Position numbers: made by a program
Shown here: one piece after another, positions 51,001-57,000 of the stretch
Numbering within the stretch: position 1 is the stretch's first letter
Layout: each line of letters opens with the position of its first letter
Assembly (NCBI RefSeq): GCF_965641715.1
Contig: NZ_OZ282453.1
Source of the DNA: Escherichia coli
GTDB taxonomy: Bacteria; Pseudomonadota; Gammaproteobacteria; Enterobacterales; Enterobacteriaceae
DNA: 64,000 nucleotides
Strand: one strand, 5' to 3'

Positions 51001-54000
51001 TTCTTGGGCTGCATCCAGAAGGGAAAGAAATTGGCGCTGACAGTTCAGGACGGCCAGTATGGATTAATTCCCCACCCCCTTCAAAAGAGGATGAGGTGTT
51101 GACGGCTGAAATGAAAAAAATATCTTTGGTTTCAGAAGTCAATACCTACATCAATACCCATCAGTGGCCTGGCAAAGCGGCGATTGGTCGTCTGAAAGGT
51201 GACGAGCTGGAACAATATAATTTGTGGCTGGATTATCTGGACGCACTGGAGCTGGTCGATACTTCCGGTGCGCCAGATATTGAATGGCCTACGCCTCCGG
51301 CAGTTCAGGCCAGATGACATCCGGCGCGGTGCTGGTATCTGTTGCAGTCACCGCGTCAATGTAATCCAGCACAGCGTTAAGCCGGGTTGTTTCTGCCTGC
51401 GTCAGTTTCCGTCCGGCCTGTAATTTCAGTTGAATCAGACTAATGGAAGCCATTGCTGCATCAATCAGTGACTGGCGCTGTGCTTCTGCCGCTTCTACTG
51501 CGGCACCGTGTTGTGCCTCAGTATCTGTCATCCATTTTTCACCATCCCATTTATCGTATGGCGTTAACGGGGCGATAGTGGTTGTATTTTCGGGATAGTC
51601 GCCTGGTGCTGTGATTTCTTTGGCATCTCCCGTTTCGGTGTTATAGACGATTTCACCTCGATGGTCTGACACATATTCCCATGATTTTAAATCCACAGAA
51701 CGGCAAATTGTATAACCAGCCTTATATGTACCAGGAGCGTCTAAACAGGAATATGCAGGGATACCGACACCAATGGCAAGATATTCATTTGAAGTGGAAA
51801 TATATTCCCGTGTTTCGCCATCATAGTTATAGACGGTAATATTTCCCGCCTTTGTAGCAATAAACTCGCTATTTAATACAGCGTTATCCATTATGCAGCC
51901 CTCACGATATAGTTAAATGCGATATTCCGTGGGCGAGTATCGGCAGGAACGACATACATTTCACCAATTGCCCGCTCATTAGAGTTGTTCAGCAATAGGC
52001 TTGAGCCATTACTGTCATGACCCGTAATTAAGATATCATTGGACAAAATAAGTGAGCCCGTACCTGCAGGAATACCATAAATTCCCATATCAAATTTAAT
52101 ATAACCAACACGCGCGCTCTGTGCAGACATAACGCTGCGACCAGTATCTACTGAACGACCGTCATCCCAGCCACGAATAAACTCACCGCGTAAATCAGGC
52201 AATTTATTTGTCGGATAAGCCTTTGCCAGTTCCGGGTATTCTTCAGCAGAAAAAGCCGCACCATTGCATTTCAGCCAGCCTGTTGGCGGAGTGGCTGAAG
52301 GCCACGGAACAGGGACACCAACAGGTAATGCCGAACCTTCTCCCAAACCAACGTTTATGAAAATGCAGAAATAACAAGCAAATGGCATCATTCCTGCTTT
52401 TGTCAGGGGGGGGGACCATGCTTATTGGCTACGTACGCGTATCAACAAATGACCAGAATACCGATCTACAACGTAATGCGTTGAACTGTGCAGGATGCGA
52501 GCTGATTTTTGAAGACAAGATAGGCGGCACAAAGTCCGAGACCTAGGGCGGACACTGCTGTTCTTGATGCAAATTAAAGGATTAAATAGTGAGTGGCGGC
52601 CTTACTAATGTAAGGCCGCTATAATCATTTTATTAATTGCATTAATCGTGTTTTGGCCATACTTTCAATGTAATGTCCCCCAACTTTTTACCCCGTTCCA
52701 CAATATATTGCTTATGAATGTCAACTAAAAAACACTTTTAGCATTTCCGTTTTATCAGAGATACTCATTCCTTTATAATAAGATATGATTTCGGTATAGA
52801 AATCTCGCGCATACATAGATAGTTTACTTTGCTTCCATGTATTTTTATTTATAGGAGATAAAAATATTTTCAACCGCTCCATTGCTGGCGGGTGAACGCC
52901 ATCCTTCAATGTTGCAATTCTAACATAAGAGCCAAAGTCATCTCGAATTAAGTCGGACATTTGCTCACAGAAATGCATATGTTCAAACAATACCTCAACA
53001 CCTTCAACTATCTCATTATAATTTACATACGAGTCTTCATTATATAAAGCTGGTTCCACGCCTTCAATATTATTCACGGCCAAAAGATAGTTTGCAAGTG
53101 CATCTGCTTCGACTTCGAATCCAATTTTCTTTTTCTTCTTTGACTCAATATCACTAATTATGACTGATTTTTGCGGATGCTCGAGTATGTGGTGGGCAAT
53201 TTCGTGCATGAGTATAAAATCGATTTGGCATTCTGTTATGAATTTAACACGTTTAACTGAATCGTTGAATAAAATAGTGGGAGGTATATAAGCAATGCAC
53301 TCAACATTCGTACAGAGATAAATAACTAATGGGATAAAATGATTTATTGCTCGATAAGCCCGCGGGCGATGACTCATATGTGTAGTTGAGTAAAAATGCT
53401 CTAGTTGTCTATTAAACTCAAATAAAACATCACGTAACGCATAATTAGCCGTGATAAATCTAATTCCATCTTTGTTTGCACTGGTTGCGTTCATTCCTCG
53501 TTTTTTAATAGGAAAAAAAGCTATATTGTGTAATGATGATTCTTTAATAATCTTATTTGGTATATGTGATAATAAACGCAATTGACTAAATCTCATCCAA
53601 TAGGGGAGGAGTTTTTTGGTTTTATCAAAATTCTCTGCCATCTTACCAGATGCTGCCGCTAACGTTTTTGCAAGCGATATTTCATGCTCCTGCATCGCCT
53701 TGAGCATGTTGTTAGAATTAGGTTCGTTCCAACTCATTACAAATGTATTCCTAATTCCTGAAAATATAGTTTCCCATATTTTTTGGTCATGATAATTACA
53801 TGCACTTGTTATCAATTCCTTCTGAGTATCAGATAGCTCAGGAAAAGAACTGTAGTCAACGACCATGAAAGACTCTAGGTCTATAACCATATTAAATCTA
53901 TTTCCACCGAGCTCCTTCCTGCAAGACTCAGGAACCCCGAGGTACGTTTCGGCCATGATAATGTCTATTTGGTGCTGCTTTAGCAAGATATCACATAGTT

Positions 54001-57000
54001 TGTTATCCTTGGCAATTCGATCATAATAATATTTGTTGTACCCAGATAAATTTTGCATAAACATCTTCTCTTATTAGATTAATAATATTATATTTCACCA
54101 TTGCTGAGTCTGTCCAACAGTGCTTGTTCTGAATTGCCACGGATAATCTAGACACTTCTCAACTATTGATACTGGTTTTCGTATTCAGTTGGTTGCATCT
54201 GATCGCTCGAACCATGCCTTCGTTTACTGTTATACAACATTTCGATGTAATCAATAATATCGCTATGTGCTTCTTACCACGTTCTGTAGATCTTTTTCTT
54301 TATCCGCTCACGTTTCAGCAACTAGAAAAAGTTTTCTGCAACCACATTATTGTGACAGTTACCGCGACCATTCATACTATCCTCCAGACCGTGTGATTTC
54401 AGGAACTACTAACGCTCATGGCTTGTGACCTGCTCCCTGATAATTCACACAGAAGGCTATTAGCAATGTCCGTTGATCGCTCACAGCCGACATTCAGCCC
54501 ACTAAATCCGACCGCGTCGATCAATATGCGGACAGGCTGTAGTACTAACTGCATTGTAGCTGTGAGATTTCACTATCGATGGCTTTTATAACCTGTTTAT
54601 AGCGGAGCATGACCTCTTCATGAATCATCATTAATCCGCGGCCGTACTCTGTGGCTATGATTGTATATCTTTTCAGGTGTGCAAGATGTTCTTTGTTGCC
54701 AGTAATGTCACTTGCAACCTGCGTGGAGTCCAGCCGTTCGATAAGCGCATTATTGCCGCGATAGGAATCAATTAGGCTTCTTGCGCTTGTATAAAAAGCC
54801 ACAATTTTTGAGAGTGTTTCTCTATGAACTTCAGGTAGGGATGCCGAGTTGGTTTCATAGAACGTGAAGTAGTTTTGAGTAATGGGGAAAATGTTATCGA
54901 ACGGTGAGTTCCGATCGTATTTTTCGATTTCTTCTGCCATTCTGGCCTGATACAGTTTAATCAGTGAATCTATTTCCTCTCTGACACCCAATAGCGTTGT
55001 TATACGCTTCTCTCTGGCCGCTGTTGCCTGCTGTTTTGCCTGCTGTTTCACCTGAGTTGTCACTCCTATCATCGTGAAACAGCCACCTAAAAGAGCTGCT
55101 AAAAATGCGGAGATGAGATCTGAATATTCGTGCCAGAAGGTTAGCATGGCGAAAATTCCATTGGGTTAAATTATGTCTATTTAACCACATAATGATACGA
55201 AGATACCTTCCAAAATGTTGCTATGACCCCATCTGTTGTTGCCTAGCTGGTGACGTGTCTGGGTATTAGCACCGTGCTCTCTCATTATCTAAGTCTGGGC
55301 CAATCCTCGTTCATAACAGGCATTCACTTCAGTCATGGCAGAAAGGTATGCATGCTGGAGAAGTCATGAAAGAAAAGAAGACTTCTGCCTCGTTTGTCAT
55401 CACTGTTATCTTCTCATTGATTATGCAGGTCATAGTGGGGACACACAAAGCTTTGTACTATCCGAAAGTGGTTAAGGTGGATCACTCCACCTTTTCATCA
55501 AGCCGGTCCGCCCACCATTGCATCATTTCTCTGCGCTTATCGAGATACTGAGCATGGTTGTAAATCCCACGTACAGATCCGCCGTTGGCATGTGCCAGTT
55601 GCACTTCAATGGCGTCGGCAGGCCATTCGTGCTCGTTCATAATCGTGCTGAATTCATGCCTGAATCCGTGACCGCTTTCCAGACCTTCATAGCCGATTTG
55701 TTTGATCACAAGTAGCACCGCGTTCTCGCAGATTGGCTTCTTCTTATCGTTGCGCCCGGAAAAAACAAACTCTGATACTGGTTTAGTGATTGAGCTTAGT
55801 GTAGTGAGAAGTTCAACCACCTGGTCTGACATCGGGACAACATGAATTTTGCGTCCCTTCATCACACTGGCGTCGATGGTGATAATCCTGTTTTCAAAAT
55901 CGACGTTCTTCCATAGCATGGAACGAAGCTCTTTTGTTCTTAGGGCTGTGTAGCGTAAAACTTTGGTCGCAATGAGCGATACGATACTTCCTGAAAATGT
56001 TGCAAGTGCTTTGTTGAATGCCGGGATCTGGTCGGCAGGTAAAAATGGGAAGTTCTTCTTGCGGTATCCCTTCATGGCGTCAGCAAGGTCAGGTGCCGGG
56101 TTATATTTAGCCCTACCAGTGACAATAGCGTAACGGAAAACCTCGCCGCATCTTCTGCGGGCTTTATTTGCTCGCTCCATTGCACCGCGATCTTCAAATC
56201 TGCGGATTACTTCCAGTAGTTGCATCGGCTCAATATCCTGAATTTCAAGACCGCCGATGATGGGTAAAATGTCGTCATCAAACATTTTTGCAAGTTCATT
56301 TGCATAGCCTACTGACCAGACTTGCTTCTTGTGCTCGTACCATTCCTTGTAAATGGCGCTAAAGGAATTGTTGTTAGACGAAGCCTTTTTCGCCTTTACC
56401 GGATCGATGCCAACCGAGATGTATTTCCTCGCAGTCCATGCTTTATCCCTTGCCTCTTGCAAAGTCATAAGCGGATATTTTCCGACGGTCAGGATTTTCT
56501 CCTTACCGTCAATCTTGTAGCGAAGCTGCCATACCTTTTTCCCTGACACAGGGACATAAAGGTACAGGCCATTACCATCGAGAAGGCGGTATGGTTTTTC
56601 TTTCGGCTTTGCTGCTTCAATCTGCTTAACGGTGAGCATGGGTAAAAATCCGGTGGGTAAAATTATTTTATCCACTTTTTACCCGTCATGGAGTGCGGCT
56701 GTCAACGATCTGAAGCGAACCATGACGAACTGTGAATCTACGGAATGCTTGATATTCAGGGGATTTTGCGAACTGGTACGGATGGGAGCGAACTGATAAA
56801 TGGTGTCCCCTGCAGGAATCGAACCTGCAATTAGCCCTTAGGAGGGGCTCGTTATATCCATTTAACTAAGAGGACAATGCGGCATGAGTATACCCGCTAA
56901 TGGACTGCGGGGTAAGTACGCTGCCGCTCGATTGCTTAAACCCTCGCCATTTATGCCGGGTTTTTATCATTTTTCTTAATGTTTTCCGCACGTTCTGCTT

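What the first reader, a model, noticed from the sequence alone, without database searches (positions are those of the whole stretch)
52547..55481. AT-rich two-gene cargo module (HExxH peptidase-like protein plus membrane protein) in the integrase-proximal moron slot
Between the truncated tail-fibre invertase and intS lie two co-oriented genes whose base composition is visibly more AT-rich than the flanking phage genes, which suggests independent acquisition. The 447-aa product carries HEIAHHILEH followed about 25 residues later by EVEADALANYLL, the two-part signature I associate with ImmA/IrrE (COG2856) metallopeptidases, but it sits in the C-terminal third behind ~280 aa of unrecognised sequence and has no Xre-type partner. 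The 200-aa product has a single N-terminal transmembrane helix. In K-12 CPS-53 and Sf-type serotype-converting phages this slot holds gtrABS; here the insert also appears to have removed the 3' end of the invertase gene. I cannot match the pair to any named defence or exclusion system, so it is my top candidate for an undescribed phage-defence, exclusion or envelope-modifying module.
Basis: partly seen in the sequence, partly recalled or inferred. Interest (0 to 1): 0.85.

Follow-up and report, generated by a model that had tools for sequence, protein, structure and literature searches.

The report
Lit-like protease gene plus unrelated orphan
The "two-gene module" is really two unrelated cargo genes separated by a dead insertion sequence: one encodes a rare, uncharacterised zinc protease distantly related to Lit, the E. 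coli enzyme that kills phage-infected cells, and the other a small membrane-anchored protein of unknown function.

Summary
There are two co-oriented minus-strand ORFs between a truncated invertase and intS. The larger gene is strongly AT-rich (35% GC against 47% for the window), carries invariant HExxH and ExxAD motifs, and has no Xre partner. The smaller product has one N-terminal hydrophobic helix.

The "module" reading does not hold. A 296-nt IS3-family remnant, plus the last 13 codons of a deleted 227-aa gene, lie between the two ORFs. Each ORF occurs elsewhere without the other, and the invertase truncation is shared with prophages that carry a different cargo (DUF262).

My best inference is a Lit-type, trigger-activated abortive-infection protease. 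That function is untested. The 200-aa protein remains an orphan. No known defence-system model matches either protein over its full length.

The parts
52418..52546 (+). Truncated tail-fibre invertase (pin'), 42 codons then a stop
   Evidence: Translation MLIGYVRVSTNDQ...GTKSET*. RefSeq calls it 'recombinase family protein, incomplete, missing C-terminus'. It aligns with full-length pinE of NADC1036 up to about 52540 and then diverges.
52547..52701 (.). Junction inherited from an earlier cargo: a hairpin at 52593-52622 that could terminate in either direction, and the last 19 codons of a DUF262 gene (52642-52701, minus strand)
   Evidence: Window 52400-52700 is ~95% identical to PCN061-type prophages, where this stretch is the 3' end of a DUF262 gene. 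The remnant reads ...ERGKKLGDITLKVWPKHD*. Terminator-like stem.
52721..54058 (-). 445-aa Lit-related zinc metalloprotease gene (an alternative ATG at 54064 gives 447 aa). HExxH at residues 285-289, ExxAD at 315-319, HPxAxxR at 389-395 (445-aa numbering)
54087..54116 (-). Promoter-like site TGGACA-18 nt-TATAAT (11 of 12 consensus positions), 29 nt upstream of the start codon
   Evidence: It is the best-scoring site of the consensus scan of 52400-55600. This is a pattern match only; expression was not shown.
54088..54129 (-). 3' remnant (13 codons plus stop, EQALLDRLSNGEI*) of a 227-aa gene that sits directly upstream of the protease gene in its two closest relatives
   Evidence: tblastn and translation against L018 and L017 (AEQALLNRLSNGGS*; 29 of 42 nt identical), with the same spacing to the protease start.
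54130..54425 (-). IS3-family insertion-sequence remnant: terminal inverted repeat TGAATTGCCACGG... and the C-terminal part of the transposase, with an internal stop
   Evidence: RefSeq pseudogene 'IS3 family transposase, missing N-terminus, internal stop'. ~85% identical to IS3-family transposase genes on many plasmids. Homology to the NADC1036/EC5502 locus resumes at about 54426.
54545..55147 (-). 200-aa orphan gene: N-terminal transmembrane anchor followed by a ~165-aa domain predicted to be cytoplasmic
   Evidence: ORF. Hydropathy peak at residues ~9-30, followed by a K/R-rich stretch. No family hits other than marginal ZorB matches. Homologues 85-90% identical in Serratia, Dickeya and Cronobacter, each with different neighbours. 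dN/dS 0.14-0.20.
55482..56639 (-). intS prophage integrase, next to tRNA-Arg (argW, 56804-56875): the prophage end that defines the slot
   Evidence: RefSeq annotation; tRNA by Rfam.

Best explanation
The interval is a mosaic cargo slot at the integrase end of an argW-integrated prophage, not one module. It holds two independent, intact, horizontally acquired genes and the debris of at least three others: pin', a DUF262 tail, the tail of a 227-aa gene, and an IS3 remnant.

Shown: the 445-aa gene encodes a soluble zincin. Its C-terminal half is homologous to the catalytic core of Lit, the e14-prophage peptidase U49. It has HExxH, a Glu in ExxAD ~26 residues later (presumably the third zinc ligand), and an HPxAxxR motif. 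The part ahead of it, ~175-260 residues, is specific to this family.

Inferred: like Lit, it is a latent, single-gene abortive-infection effector. It stays inactive until a phage-made protein, or a phage-protein/host-protein complex, is recognised, probably through the family-specific N-terminal part. It then cleaves an essential host protein (EF-Tu in the case of Lit), which stops translation and phage production. The trigger and the substrate are unknown.

The 200-aa protein is a separate membrane-anchored orphan that travels alone among enterobacterial islands, prophages and plasmids. Its role, whether exclusion or defence, is a guess from context only.
For: Anatomy: an IS3 remnant and gene tails lie between and around the ORFs.

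Independence: the 200-aa gene sits next to a 299-aa gene in NADC1036 and EC5502, next to a 261-aa gene and Septu PtuAB in Serratia, next to DUF4238 in Cronobacter, and next to none of these in Dickeya or a P1-like element. Protease homologues are solo in a lambdoid prophage between dinI and perC/P (L029), in metagenome contigs, and in Bradyrhizobium, Aminobacter, Paraburkholderia, Vibrio and Pseudomonas.

Homology to Lit: hhalign of the family against K-12 Lit gives 82.9%, E 9e-6 over 142 columns. Against a 7-member Lit-family alignment it gives 96.9%, E 1.3e-10, with family residues 265-423 aligned to Lit 139-263. The controls HtpX and BepA give 17% over 24 columns. The invariant residues are the same in both families. 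Weak Lit hits appear in PADLOC and NCBIfam, and precomputed PF10463 hits exist for relatives.

Fold: a confident model (pLDDT 87.7, pTM 0.91) with an M48-type catalytic domain.

Real gene under constraint: dN/dS 0.08-0.10.

Context typical of defence cargo: prophage integrase end (as for lit next to intE in e14); next to AbiJ-NTD4 on Rts1-type plasmids; near RES and PDC-S31/DUF2971 genes; next to a CBASS-like nucleotidyltransferase in P. syringae. Repeated IS disruption of plasmid copies fits a costly or toxic gene.
Against: There are no functional data, so 'defence' rests on homology to one characterised protein plus context. The similarity to Lit covers only ~125-160 residues. The window protein scores far below the curated Lit thresholds (NCBIfam 16 bits against a cut-off of 274), and no family member tested matched PF10463.15 in the live Pfam scan at the thresholds it reports (window protein and P0039 listed to E<=10; per-member table for the other members), although Lit itself hits at 2e-112. 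The short core also matches CapP, RmrA, M78 and M48 models about as well as it matches the Lit model in single-sequence HMM scans. In its two closest relatives the gene follows a 227-aa gene that is deleted here, so the copy in the window might be a crippled half of a pair. The promoter is only a pattern match. The gene is rare: 1 of 5,426 complete E. coli genomes. For the 200-aa protein there is no evidence of function at all.
Confidence: 0.5

Rival explanations
1. One reading: the 447-aa and 200-aa genes form one undescribed two-gene defence, exclusion or envelope-modifying module acquired together.
For: The genes are co-oriented, adjacent and both below backbone GC. More than 100 assemblies of this lineage carry both with identical spacing.
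Against: An IS3 remnant and a foreign gene tail separate them, a 480-nt gap. GC differs, 0.35 against 0.43. Outside this one lineage they were not found together at any locus examined, and each has other neighbours elsewhere. The shared spacing in those assemblies reflects a single prophage lineage at a single site.
Confidence: 0.07
2. An ImmA/IrrE-type (M78) anti-repressor protease that cleaves a cognate Xre-family repressor to induce or regulate a mobile element.
For: The HExxH...ExxA(D/N)xxA spacing is that of M78/CapP. PF06114 hits 2 of 33 members at E<=0.001 and 15 of 33 at E<=0.1. CapP is the best PADLOC model for most members and the best PDB sequence hit, 7t5t at E 0.005.
Confidence: 0.1
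3. Inert debris: both ORFs are leftovers of rearrangements in a decaying prophage end and do nothing in this strain. In particular, the protease could be the orphaned half of a 227-aa/445-aa pair.
For: The protease gene is flanked on both sides by gene remnants and a dead IS. Its upstream neighbour in the closest relatives has been deleted. It is very rare in E. coli. Plasmid copies are often broken by IS elements.
Against: Both ORFs are full-length with every invariant residue intact. More distant family members are solo genes, and 227-aa homologues occur without the protease, so the pairing is not obligatory. A near-consensus promoter-like site survives between the IS end and the start codon. 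dN/dS is low across the family, though that does not test this particular copy.
Confidence: 0.2
4. A housekeeping-type M48 quality-control protease or a secreted or virulence protease carried as lysogenic-conversion cargo.
For: The best structural matches are the M48 proteins BepA, Ste24 and BlaR1. PF01435 is the most frequent Pfam hit, 7 of 33 members at E<=0.001.
Against: The protease has no marked transmembrane segment: the hydropathy maximum is 1.58, in a stretch the model places inside a helix. A signal peptide was not tested for. hhalign to HtpX and BepA reaches only 17% over 24 columns. The distribution is sporadic and bound to mobile elements.
Confidence: 0.05

Closest known systems
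Lit (peptidase U49, MEROPS U49; e14 prophage of E. coli K-12; 'cell death peptidase')
   Same: It is a single-gene, cytoplasmic HExxH zincin encoded next to a prophage integrase (lit next to intE). The same three invariant motifs occur in the same order and with similar spacing: HExxHxxLxHP, E-x-x-A-D ~20-26 residues later, and (T/S)HPxAxxR. Profile-profile homology over ~125-160 residues reaches 96.9%, E 1.3e-10. From the literature, not tested here: Lit is latent until the Gol segment of the T4 major capsid protein appears, and then cleaves EF-Tu.
   Different: 445 aa against 297 aa. The ~260 residues ahead of the HExxH helix are at most marginally alignable with Lit's 138. Sequence identity in the core is ~20-23%. 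The window protein fails the curated Lit model (16 bits against 274), and no family member tested matched PF10463.15 in the live Pfam scan. Trigger and substrate are unknown.
ImmA/IrrE (peptidase M78, COG2856), including CapP of CBASS
   Same: Short-spacer HExxH...ExxA(N/D)xFA core. CapP (7t5t) is the best sequence hit in the PDB and the best PADLOC model for most family members.
Peptidase M48 (Ste24/ZMPSTE24, HtpX, BepA) and M56 (BlaR1)
   Different: M48 enzymes are membrane or periplasmic proteins with a ~60-75-residue spacer between HExxH and the third ligand. This family is soluble with a ~26-residue spacer. hhalign to HtpX and BepA is only 17%.
   Same: Same position, between the tail-fibre region and intS at argW (the K-12 layout is from general knowledge and was not re-examined here).
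   Different: There are no glycosyltransferase or flippase hits in Pfam, NCBIfam or PHROGs for either protein. The 200-aa protein has a single predicted hydrophobic helix and no match to glycosyltransferase or flippase families.

Membership tests
Peptidase U49 / Lit | Catalytic HExxH motif plus the downstream Glu/Asp (ExxAD) and HPxxxxR motifs that are invariant in Lit homologues | tested here: met
   H285, E286, H289, E315, D319, P390 and R395 are invariant (H389 at >=90%) in 33 family members. The matching residues H160, E161, H164, E181, D185, H232, P233 and R238 are invariant in 7 Lit-family proteins.
Peptidase U49 / Lit | Significant match to the curated family models (Pfam PF10463, NCBIfam PRK09672 equivalog) | tested here: not met
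   NCBIfam scores 16 bits against a cut-off of 274. The live Pfam (PF10463.15) gives no hit for the window protein or P0039 even at E<=10, and PF10463 is absent from the per-member table for the 33 members, while Lit hits at 2e-112. Precomputed PF10463.16 hits exist but are 'faint' for this protein and weak to clear for some relatives.
Peptidase U49 / Lit | Homology of the catalytic domain detectable by profile-profile comparison | tested here: met
   hhalign of A3 against Lit alone gives 82.9%, E 9e-6. A3 against the Lit-family alignment A7 gives 96.9%, E 1.3e-10 over 125 columns. The M48 controls give 17%.
Peptidase U49 / Lit | Phage-peptide-triggered cleavage of EF-Tu that causes abortive infection | not testable with these tools
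   This needs infection assays and an EF-Tu cleavage assay.
ImmA/IrrE (M78, COG2856) | HExxH with the third ligand in ExxA(N/D) ~25-30 residues downstream | tested here: met
   The motif and its spacing are present. The alignment to CapP 7t5t covers exactly this stretch.
ImmA/IrrE (M78, COG2856) | Match to PF06114 | tested here: inconclusive
   The window protein has no hit. 2 of 33 members hit at E<=0.001 and 15 of 33 at E<=0.1.
ImmA/IrrE (M78, COG2856) | Adjacent cognate Xre/HTH repressor gene, the substrate | tested here: not met
   No HTH gene is adjacent in the window or at 12 or more homologous loci.
Peptidase M48 | M48 fold of the catalytic domain | tested here: met
Peptidase M48 | Sequence-family membership (PF01435) and membrane or periplasmic location | tested here: not met
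   The window protein scores i-E 0.12 over 29 residues. hhalign to HtpX and BepA gives 17%. The protease has no marked transmembrane segment.
Any system in PADLOC-DB v2.0 (including PD-Lambda-2, Zorya) | Full-length match of each protein to the system's models, and presence of the system's other genes | tested here: not met
   There are only 27-50-residue core matches for the protease (Lit 6e-4, PD-Lambda-2_B 7e-4, capP 0.02) and marginal ZorB matches (2-3e-3) for the 200-aa protein. No partner genes of those systems are present.

The most novel reading that the evidence does not exclude
The 445-aa protein could be the founding example of a new family of Lit-type abortive-infection proteases. 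In this reading the conserved Lit/M48-like catalytic core is fused to a family-specific N-terminal sensor domain, so the family responds to a different phage trigger and perhaps cuts a different essential host protein than EF-Tu. The family is spread thinly across Proteobacteria on prophages, conjugative plasmids and defence islands. The repeated IS disruption of plasmid copies would then reflect the cost of carrying a latent suicide protease.
Probability: 0.35. Interest if true: 0.6.

Novelty: new variant of a known kind. Interest (0 to 1): 0.42.

Why it matters
Lit was one of the first abortive-infection systems to be worked out, and it has remained almost alone: one enzyme, one trigger (the T4 Gol peptide) and one target (EF-Tu). 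A second family that keeps the catalytic core but has a different N-terminal half would allow a direct test of how such proteases are kept latent, and of what decides which phage signal and which host protein they recognise. It would also add a single-gene system to defence-finder catalogues, which currently miss it. The locus also gives a practical warning. Adjacent AT-rich ORFs in a prophage cargo slot can be independent fragments joined by IS activity, so "operon-like" neighbours need checking against other genomes before being called a system.

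Tried and rejected
1. PADLOC, NCBIfam, PHROGs and Pfam scans of both proteins gave only short or marginal hits.
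2. The first AlphaFold run, on a 4-sequence alignment, failed (pLDDT 41.6). The 33-sequence alignment worked.
3. The PDB sequence search with the 4-sequence profile found nothing.
4. The BFVD viral fold search found nothing at E<=0.001, so this is not a common phage protein. tblastn against 50,697 phage genomes gave no match for either protein.
5. The idea that the 227-aa upstream gene, or AbiJ-NTD4, is an obligatory partner was rejected. 227-aa homologues occur without the protease, the more distant protease homologues are solo, and the 227-aa protein and AbiJ-NTD4 are unrelated to each other.
6. The idea that the neighbours of the 200-aa gene (299 aa, 261 aa, DUF4238) are one disguised partner family was rejected: they show no pairwise similarity.
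7. The ZorB/MotB-like reading of the 200-aa protein was judged spurious. E is 2-3e-3, no ZorA is present, and the charge distribution predicts the opposite topology.
8. The genome-collection scan with the full 33-sequence alignment failed for lack of a conserved stretch. A 12-sequence subset worked but found only 6 loci.
9. Rfam found nothing in the interval apart from tRNA-Arg.
10. Literature searches for U49 or Lit-like families found no description of this family.

Full report
**Source and layout**

Apart from one extra G in a poly-G tract, the examined interval 52400-55500 is identical to E. coli strain TL20, NZ_CP191567.1. The finding lies at the integrase end of a prophage integrated at tRNA-Arg (argW), upstream of yfdC and mlaA.

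Reading from low to high coordinates, with genes on the minus strand unless stated:
- Tail-fibre assembly genes.
- pin', a truncated invertase, at 52418-52546 on the plus strand.
- A junction segment at 52547-52701.
- A 445/447-aa ORF at 52721-54058 (or 54064).
- A 42-nt gene tail at 54088-54129.
- An IS3-family remnant at 54130-54425.
- A 200-aa ORF at 54545-55147.
- intS from 55482.

**Check of the observation**

The AT-richness is strong for the large gene (GC 0.353, GC3 0.334) and mild for the small one (0.433). For comparison, intS, baseplate J and yfdC are at 0.47-0.49, and the whole window is at 0.474. The 200-aa product has one hydrophobic segment at residues ~9-30. It is followed by a K/R-rich stretch, which by the positive-inside rule places the ~165-residue C-terminal domain in the cytoplasm (the topology is an inference).

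**The two genes are not one module**

RefSeq annotates an IS3-family transposase pseudogene between the two ORFs, with the N-terminus missing and an internal stop. That stretch is ~85% identical to IS3-family transposase genes on about 2,000 plasmids.

Directly between the IS end (TGAATTGCC... at 54130) and the protease start lie 13 codons plus a stop, EQALLDRLSNGEI*. These match the C-terminus of a 227-aa gene (AEQALLNRLSNGGS*) that sits 26 nt upstream of the protease gene in its two closest relatives, which are 72% and 70% identical (loci L017 and L018). The spacing is the same.

On the other side of the protease gene, the invertase truncation and the next ~150 nt are shared at ~95% identity with PCN061-type prophages. 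In those prophages this stretch is the 3' end of a DUF262 gene, and 19 codons of that gene (...ERGKKLGDITLKVWPKHD*) survive at 52642-52701.

To the right of the IS remnant, homology to strains NADC1036 and EC5502 resumes at about 54426. In those strains the 200-aa gene is followed by an unrelated 299-aa gene rather than the protease.

The whole 3.1-kb arrangement occurs in only 1 of 5,426 complete E. coli genomes. All the draft assemblies examined that carry it show the same prophage at the same site, which points to a single lineage.

**The 445-aa protein**

*Family size.* A full HMMER scan of 1.84 billion cluster representatives found only 66 with E<=0.001. About 30 of them are full-length proteins of 433-475 aa.

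*Conserved residues.* In a 33-member alignment (18-72% identity to the window protein) the invariant residues are H285, E286, H289, E315, A318, D319, P390 and R395, plus P152, W154, L212, Q278 and L357. H389 is conserved in at least 90%.

*Weak single-sequence hits.* Single-sequence HMM scans match only the ~50-residue core. The hits are Lit, PD-Lambda-2_B and CapP in PADLOC, Lit PRK09672 in NCBIfam, and M48 in Pfam, all weak. Across family members the best models are CapP, RmrA, Lit, M48 and M78.

*Profile-profile comparison.* This is more discriminating.
- The family against K-12 Lit alone: 82.9% probability, E 9e-6, 142 columns.
- The family against an alignment of seven annotated Lit-family proteins collected from plasmids: 96.9%, E 1.3e-10, with family residues 265-423 aligned to Lit 139-263.
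- The controls HtpX and BepA: 17% over 24 columns.

The Lit family has the same invariant set: H160, E161, H164, E181, D185, H232, P233 and R238.

*Pfam versions.* The live Pfam library (PF10463.15) recognises Lit at 2e-112, but no family member tested matched PF10463 in that scan. Precomputed PF10463.16 hits exist for several relatives and are 'faint' for the window protein. I therefore do not file the protein as a U49 member. I call it a distant relative.

*Selection.* dN/dS against the 70-72% identical homologues is 0.08-0.10.

*Genomic contexts.*
- A solo moron between dinI and perC/P in a lambdoid prophage.
- Solo on metagenome contigs.
- Downstream of an AbiJ-NTD4 gene on Rts1 (IncT), Moellerella and Klebsiella plasmids. 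Nine of the ten plasmid copies are split or truncated by ISAs1 or IS1.
- Near RES and PDC-S31/DUF2971 genes.
- Next to a CBASS-like nucleotidyltransferase in P. syringae.

The 227-aa neighbour is not obligatory, since its homologues occur without the protease. A near-consensus promoter-like site (TGGACA-18-TATAAT) survives in the 72 nt between the IS end and the start codon. That is a pattern match only.

**The 200-aa protein**

Pfam, NCBIfam, PHROGs and the PDB give no match. Only marginal ZorB hits appear, and I regard them as spurious. Homologues that are 85-90% identical occur in Serratia, Dickeya and Cronobacter, and a 57% identical one is on a P1-like element. In every case the gene stands alone with different neighbours, which include a Septu PtuAB pair, a DUF4011 helicase and DUF4238. 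dN/dS is 0.14-0.20. It is a real gene that moves between genomes. Its function is unknown, and a defence or exclusion role is only suggested by the company it keeps.

**Mechanism**

*Shown.* The locus is a mosaic. The two genes are independent. The large protein has a zincin core with all catalytic motifs intact and is homologous to Lit.

*Inferred.* The large protein is a single-gene, latent suicide protease in the manner of Lit. The family-specific N-terminal part would act as the sensor or autoinhibitor, and activation during phage infection would lead to cleavage of an essential host protein.

*Rivals.* The alternatives are an ImmA-like anti-repressor protease (no partner gene found), inert debris (both ORFs and all motifs are intact, but the upstream neighbour is lost), and an M48-type envelope protease (the protein is soluble and bound to mobile elements).

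**Novelty and verdict**

The "two-gene module" interpretation is not. What remains of interest is a rare, uncharacterised Lit-related protease family with a different N-terminal half, which I rate as a new variant of a known kind, together with an orphan membrane protein. Interest is moderate at 0.42. It would rise if the protease proves to be a functional abortive-infection enzyme with a new trigger or target.

Noticed in passing
window 45884-47036 (+): An AT-rich (GC 0.41-0.43) pair of overlapping ORFs sits inside the tail/baseplate module: a 266-aa orphan and a 123-aa protein that RefSeq names 'HEPN domain-containing protein'. It looks like a second cargo or defence insertion in this prophage.
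   Followed up: no
window ~58750-60500: A strongly AT-rich stretch (GC 0.32-0.36) lies between mlaA and fadL. RefSeq has a 415-aa hypothetical protein here, where other strains have the 352-aa yfdF.
   Followed up: no
window 54003-54018 and 54131-54146: The terminal 16 nt of the IS3 remnant (GAATTGCCACGGATAA) have a 15/16 inverted match 112 nt away, inside codons ~14-19 of the protease gene. This may be chance, or it may reflect the tendency of IS3-family elements to insert next to sequences that resemble their ends (the targeting idea is from general knowledge).
   Followed up: partly
L004 (Rts1), L005 (Moellerella pW1-a), L006 (Klebsiella pLY161): On conjugative plasmids the protease homologue always follows an AbiJ-NTD4 gene. 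The pair is repeatedly hit by IS elements: IS3 truncates AbiJ-NTD4 in Rts1, ISAs1 splits the protease in Moellerella, and IS1 removes its N-terminal ~200 residues in Klebsiella.
   Followed up: partly
L002 4739-5638 (-), L003 4739-5776 (-) and 3072-4304 (-): In NADC1036 and EC5502 the same slot holds a 299-aa protein (MTAIACWLNREEG...), and in EC5502 also a 410-aa protein. Neither has any hit in PADLOC, and the 299-aa protein has none in NCBIfam. They are further orphan cargo of this hotspot.
   Followed up: partly
L020 5001-8708 (Serratia): The Serratia copy of the 200-aa gene lies in a small island with a 261-aa orphan and a Septu PtuA/PtuB pair, between an ArsP permease gene and nrdD/G.
   Followed up: partly
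L056 130-1467 (Sinorhizobium terangae plasmid): A protein annotated 'phage exclusion protein Lit family protein' is 445 aa long, with a ~150-residue N-terminal extension relative to Lit. In the alignment that extension lines up with nothing in the window family. So N-terminal extensions on the Lit core have arisen more than once.
   Followed up: partly
window 52406-52414: The poly-G tract just upstream of the pin' start codon is one G longer in the window than in the RefSeq TL20 record. It is the only difference in the 3.1-kb interval.
   Followed up: yes
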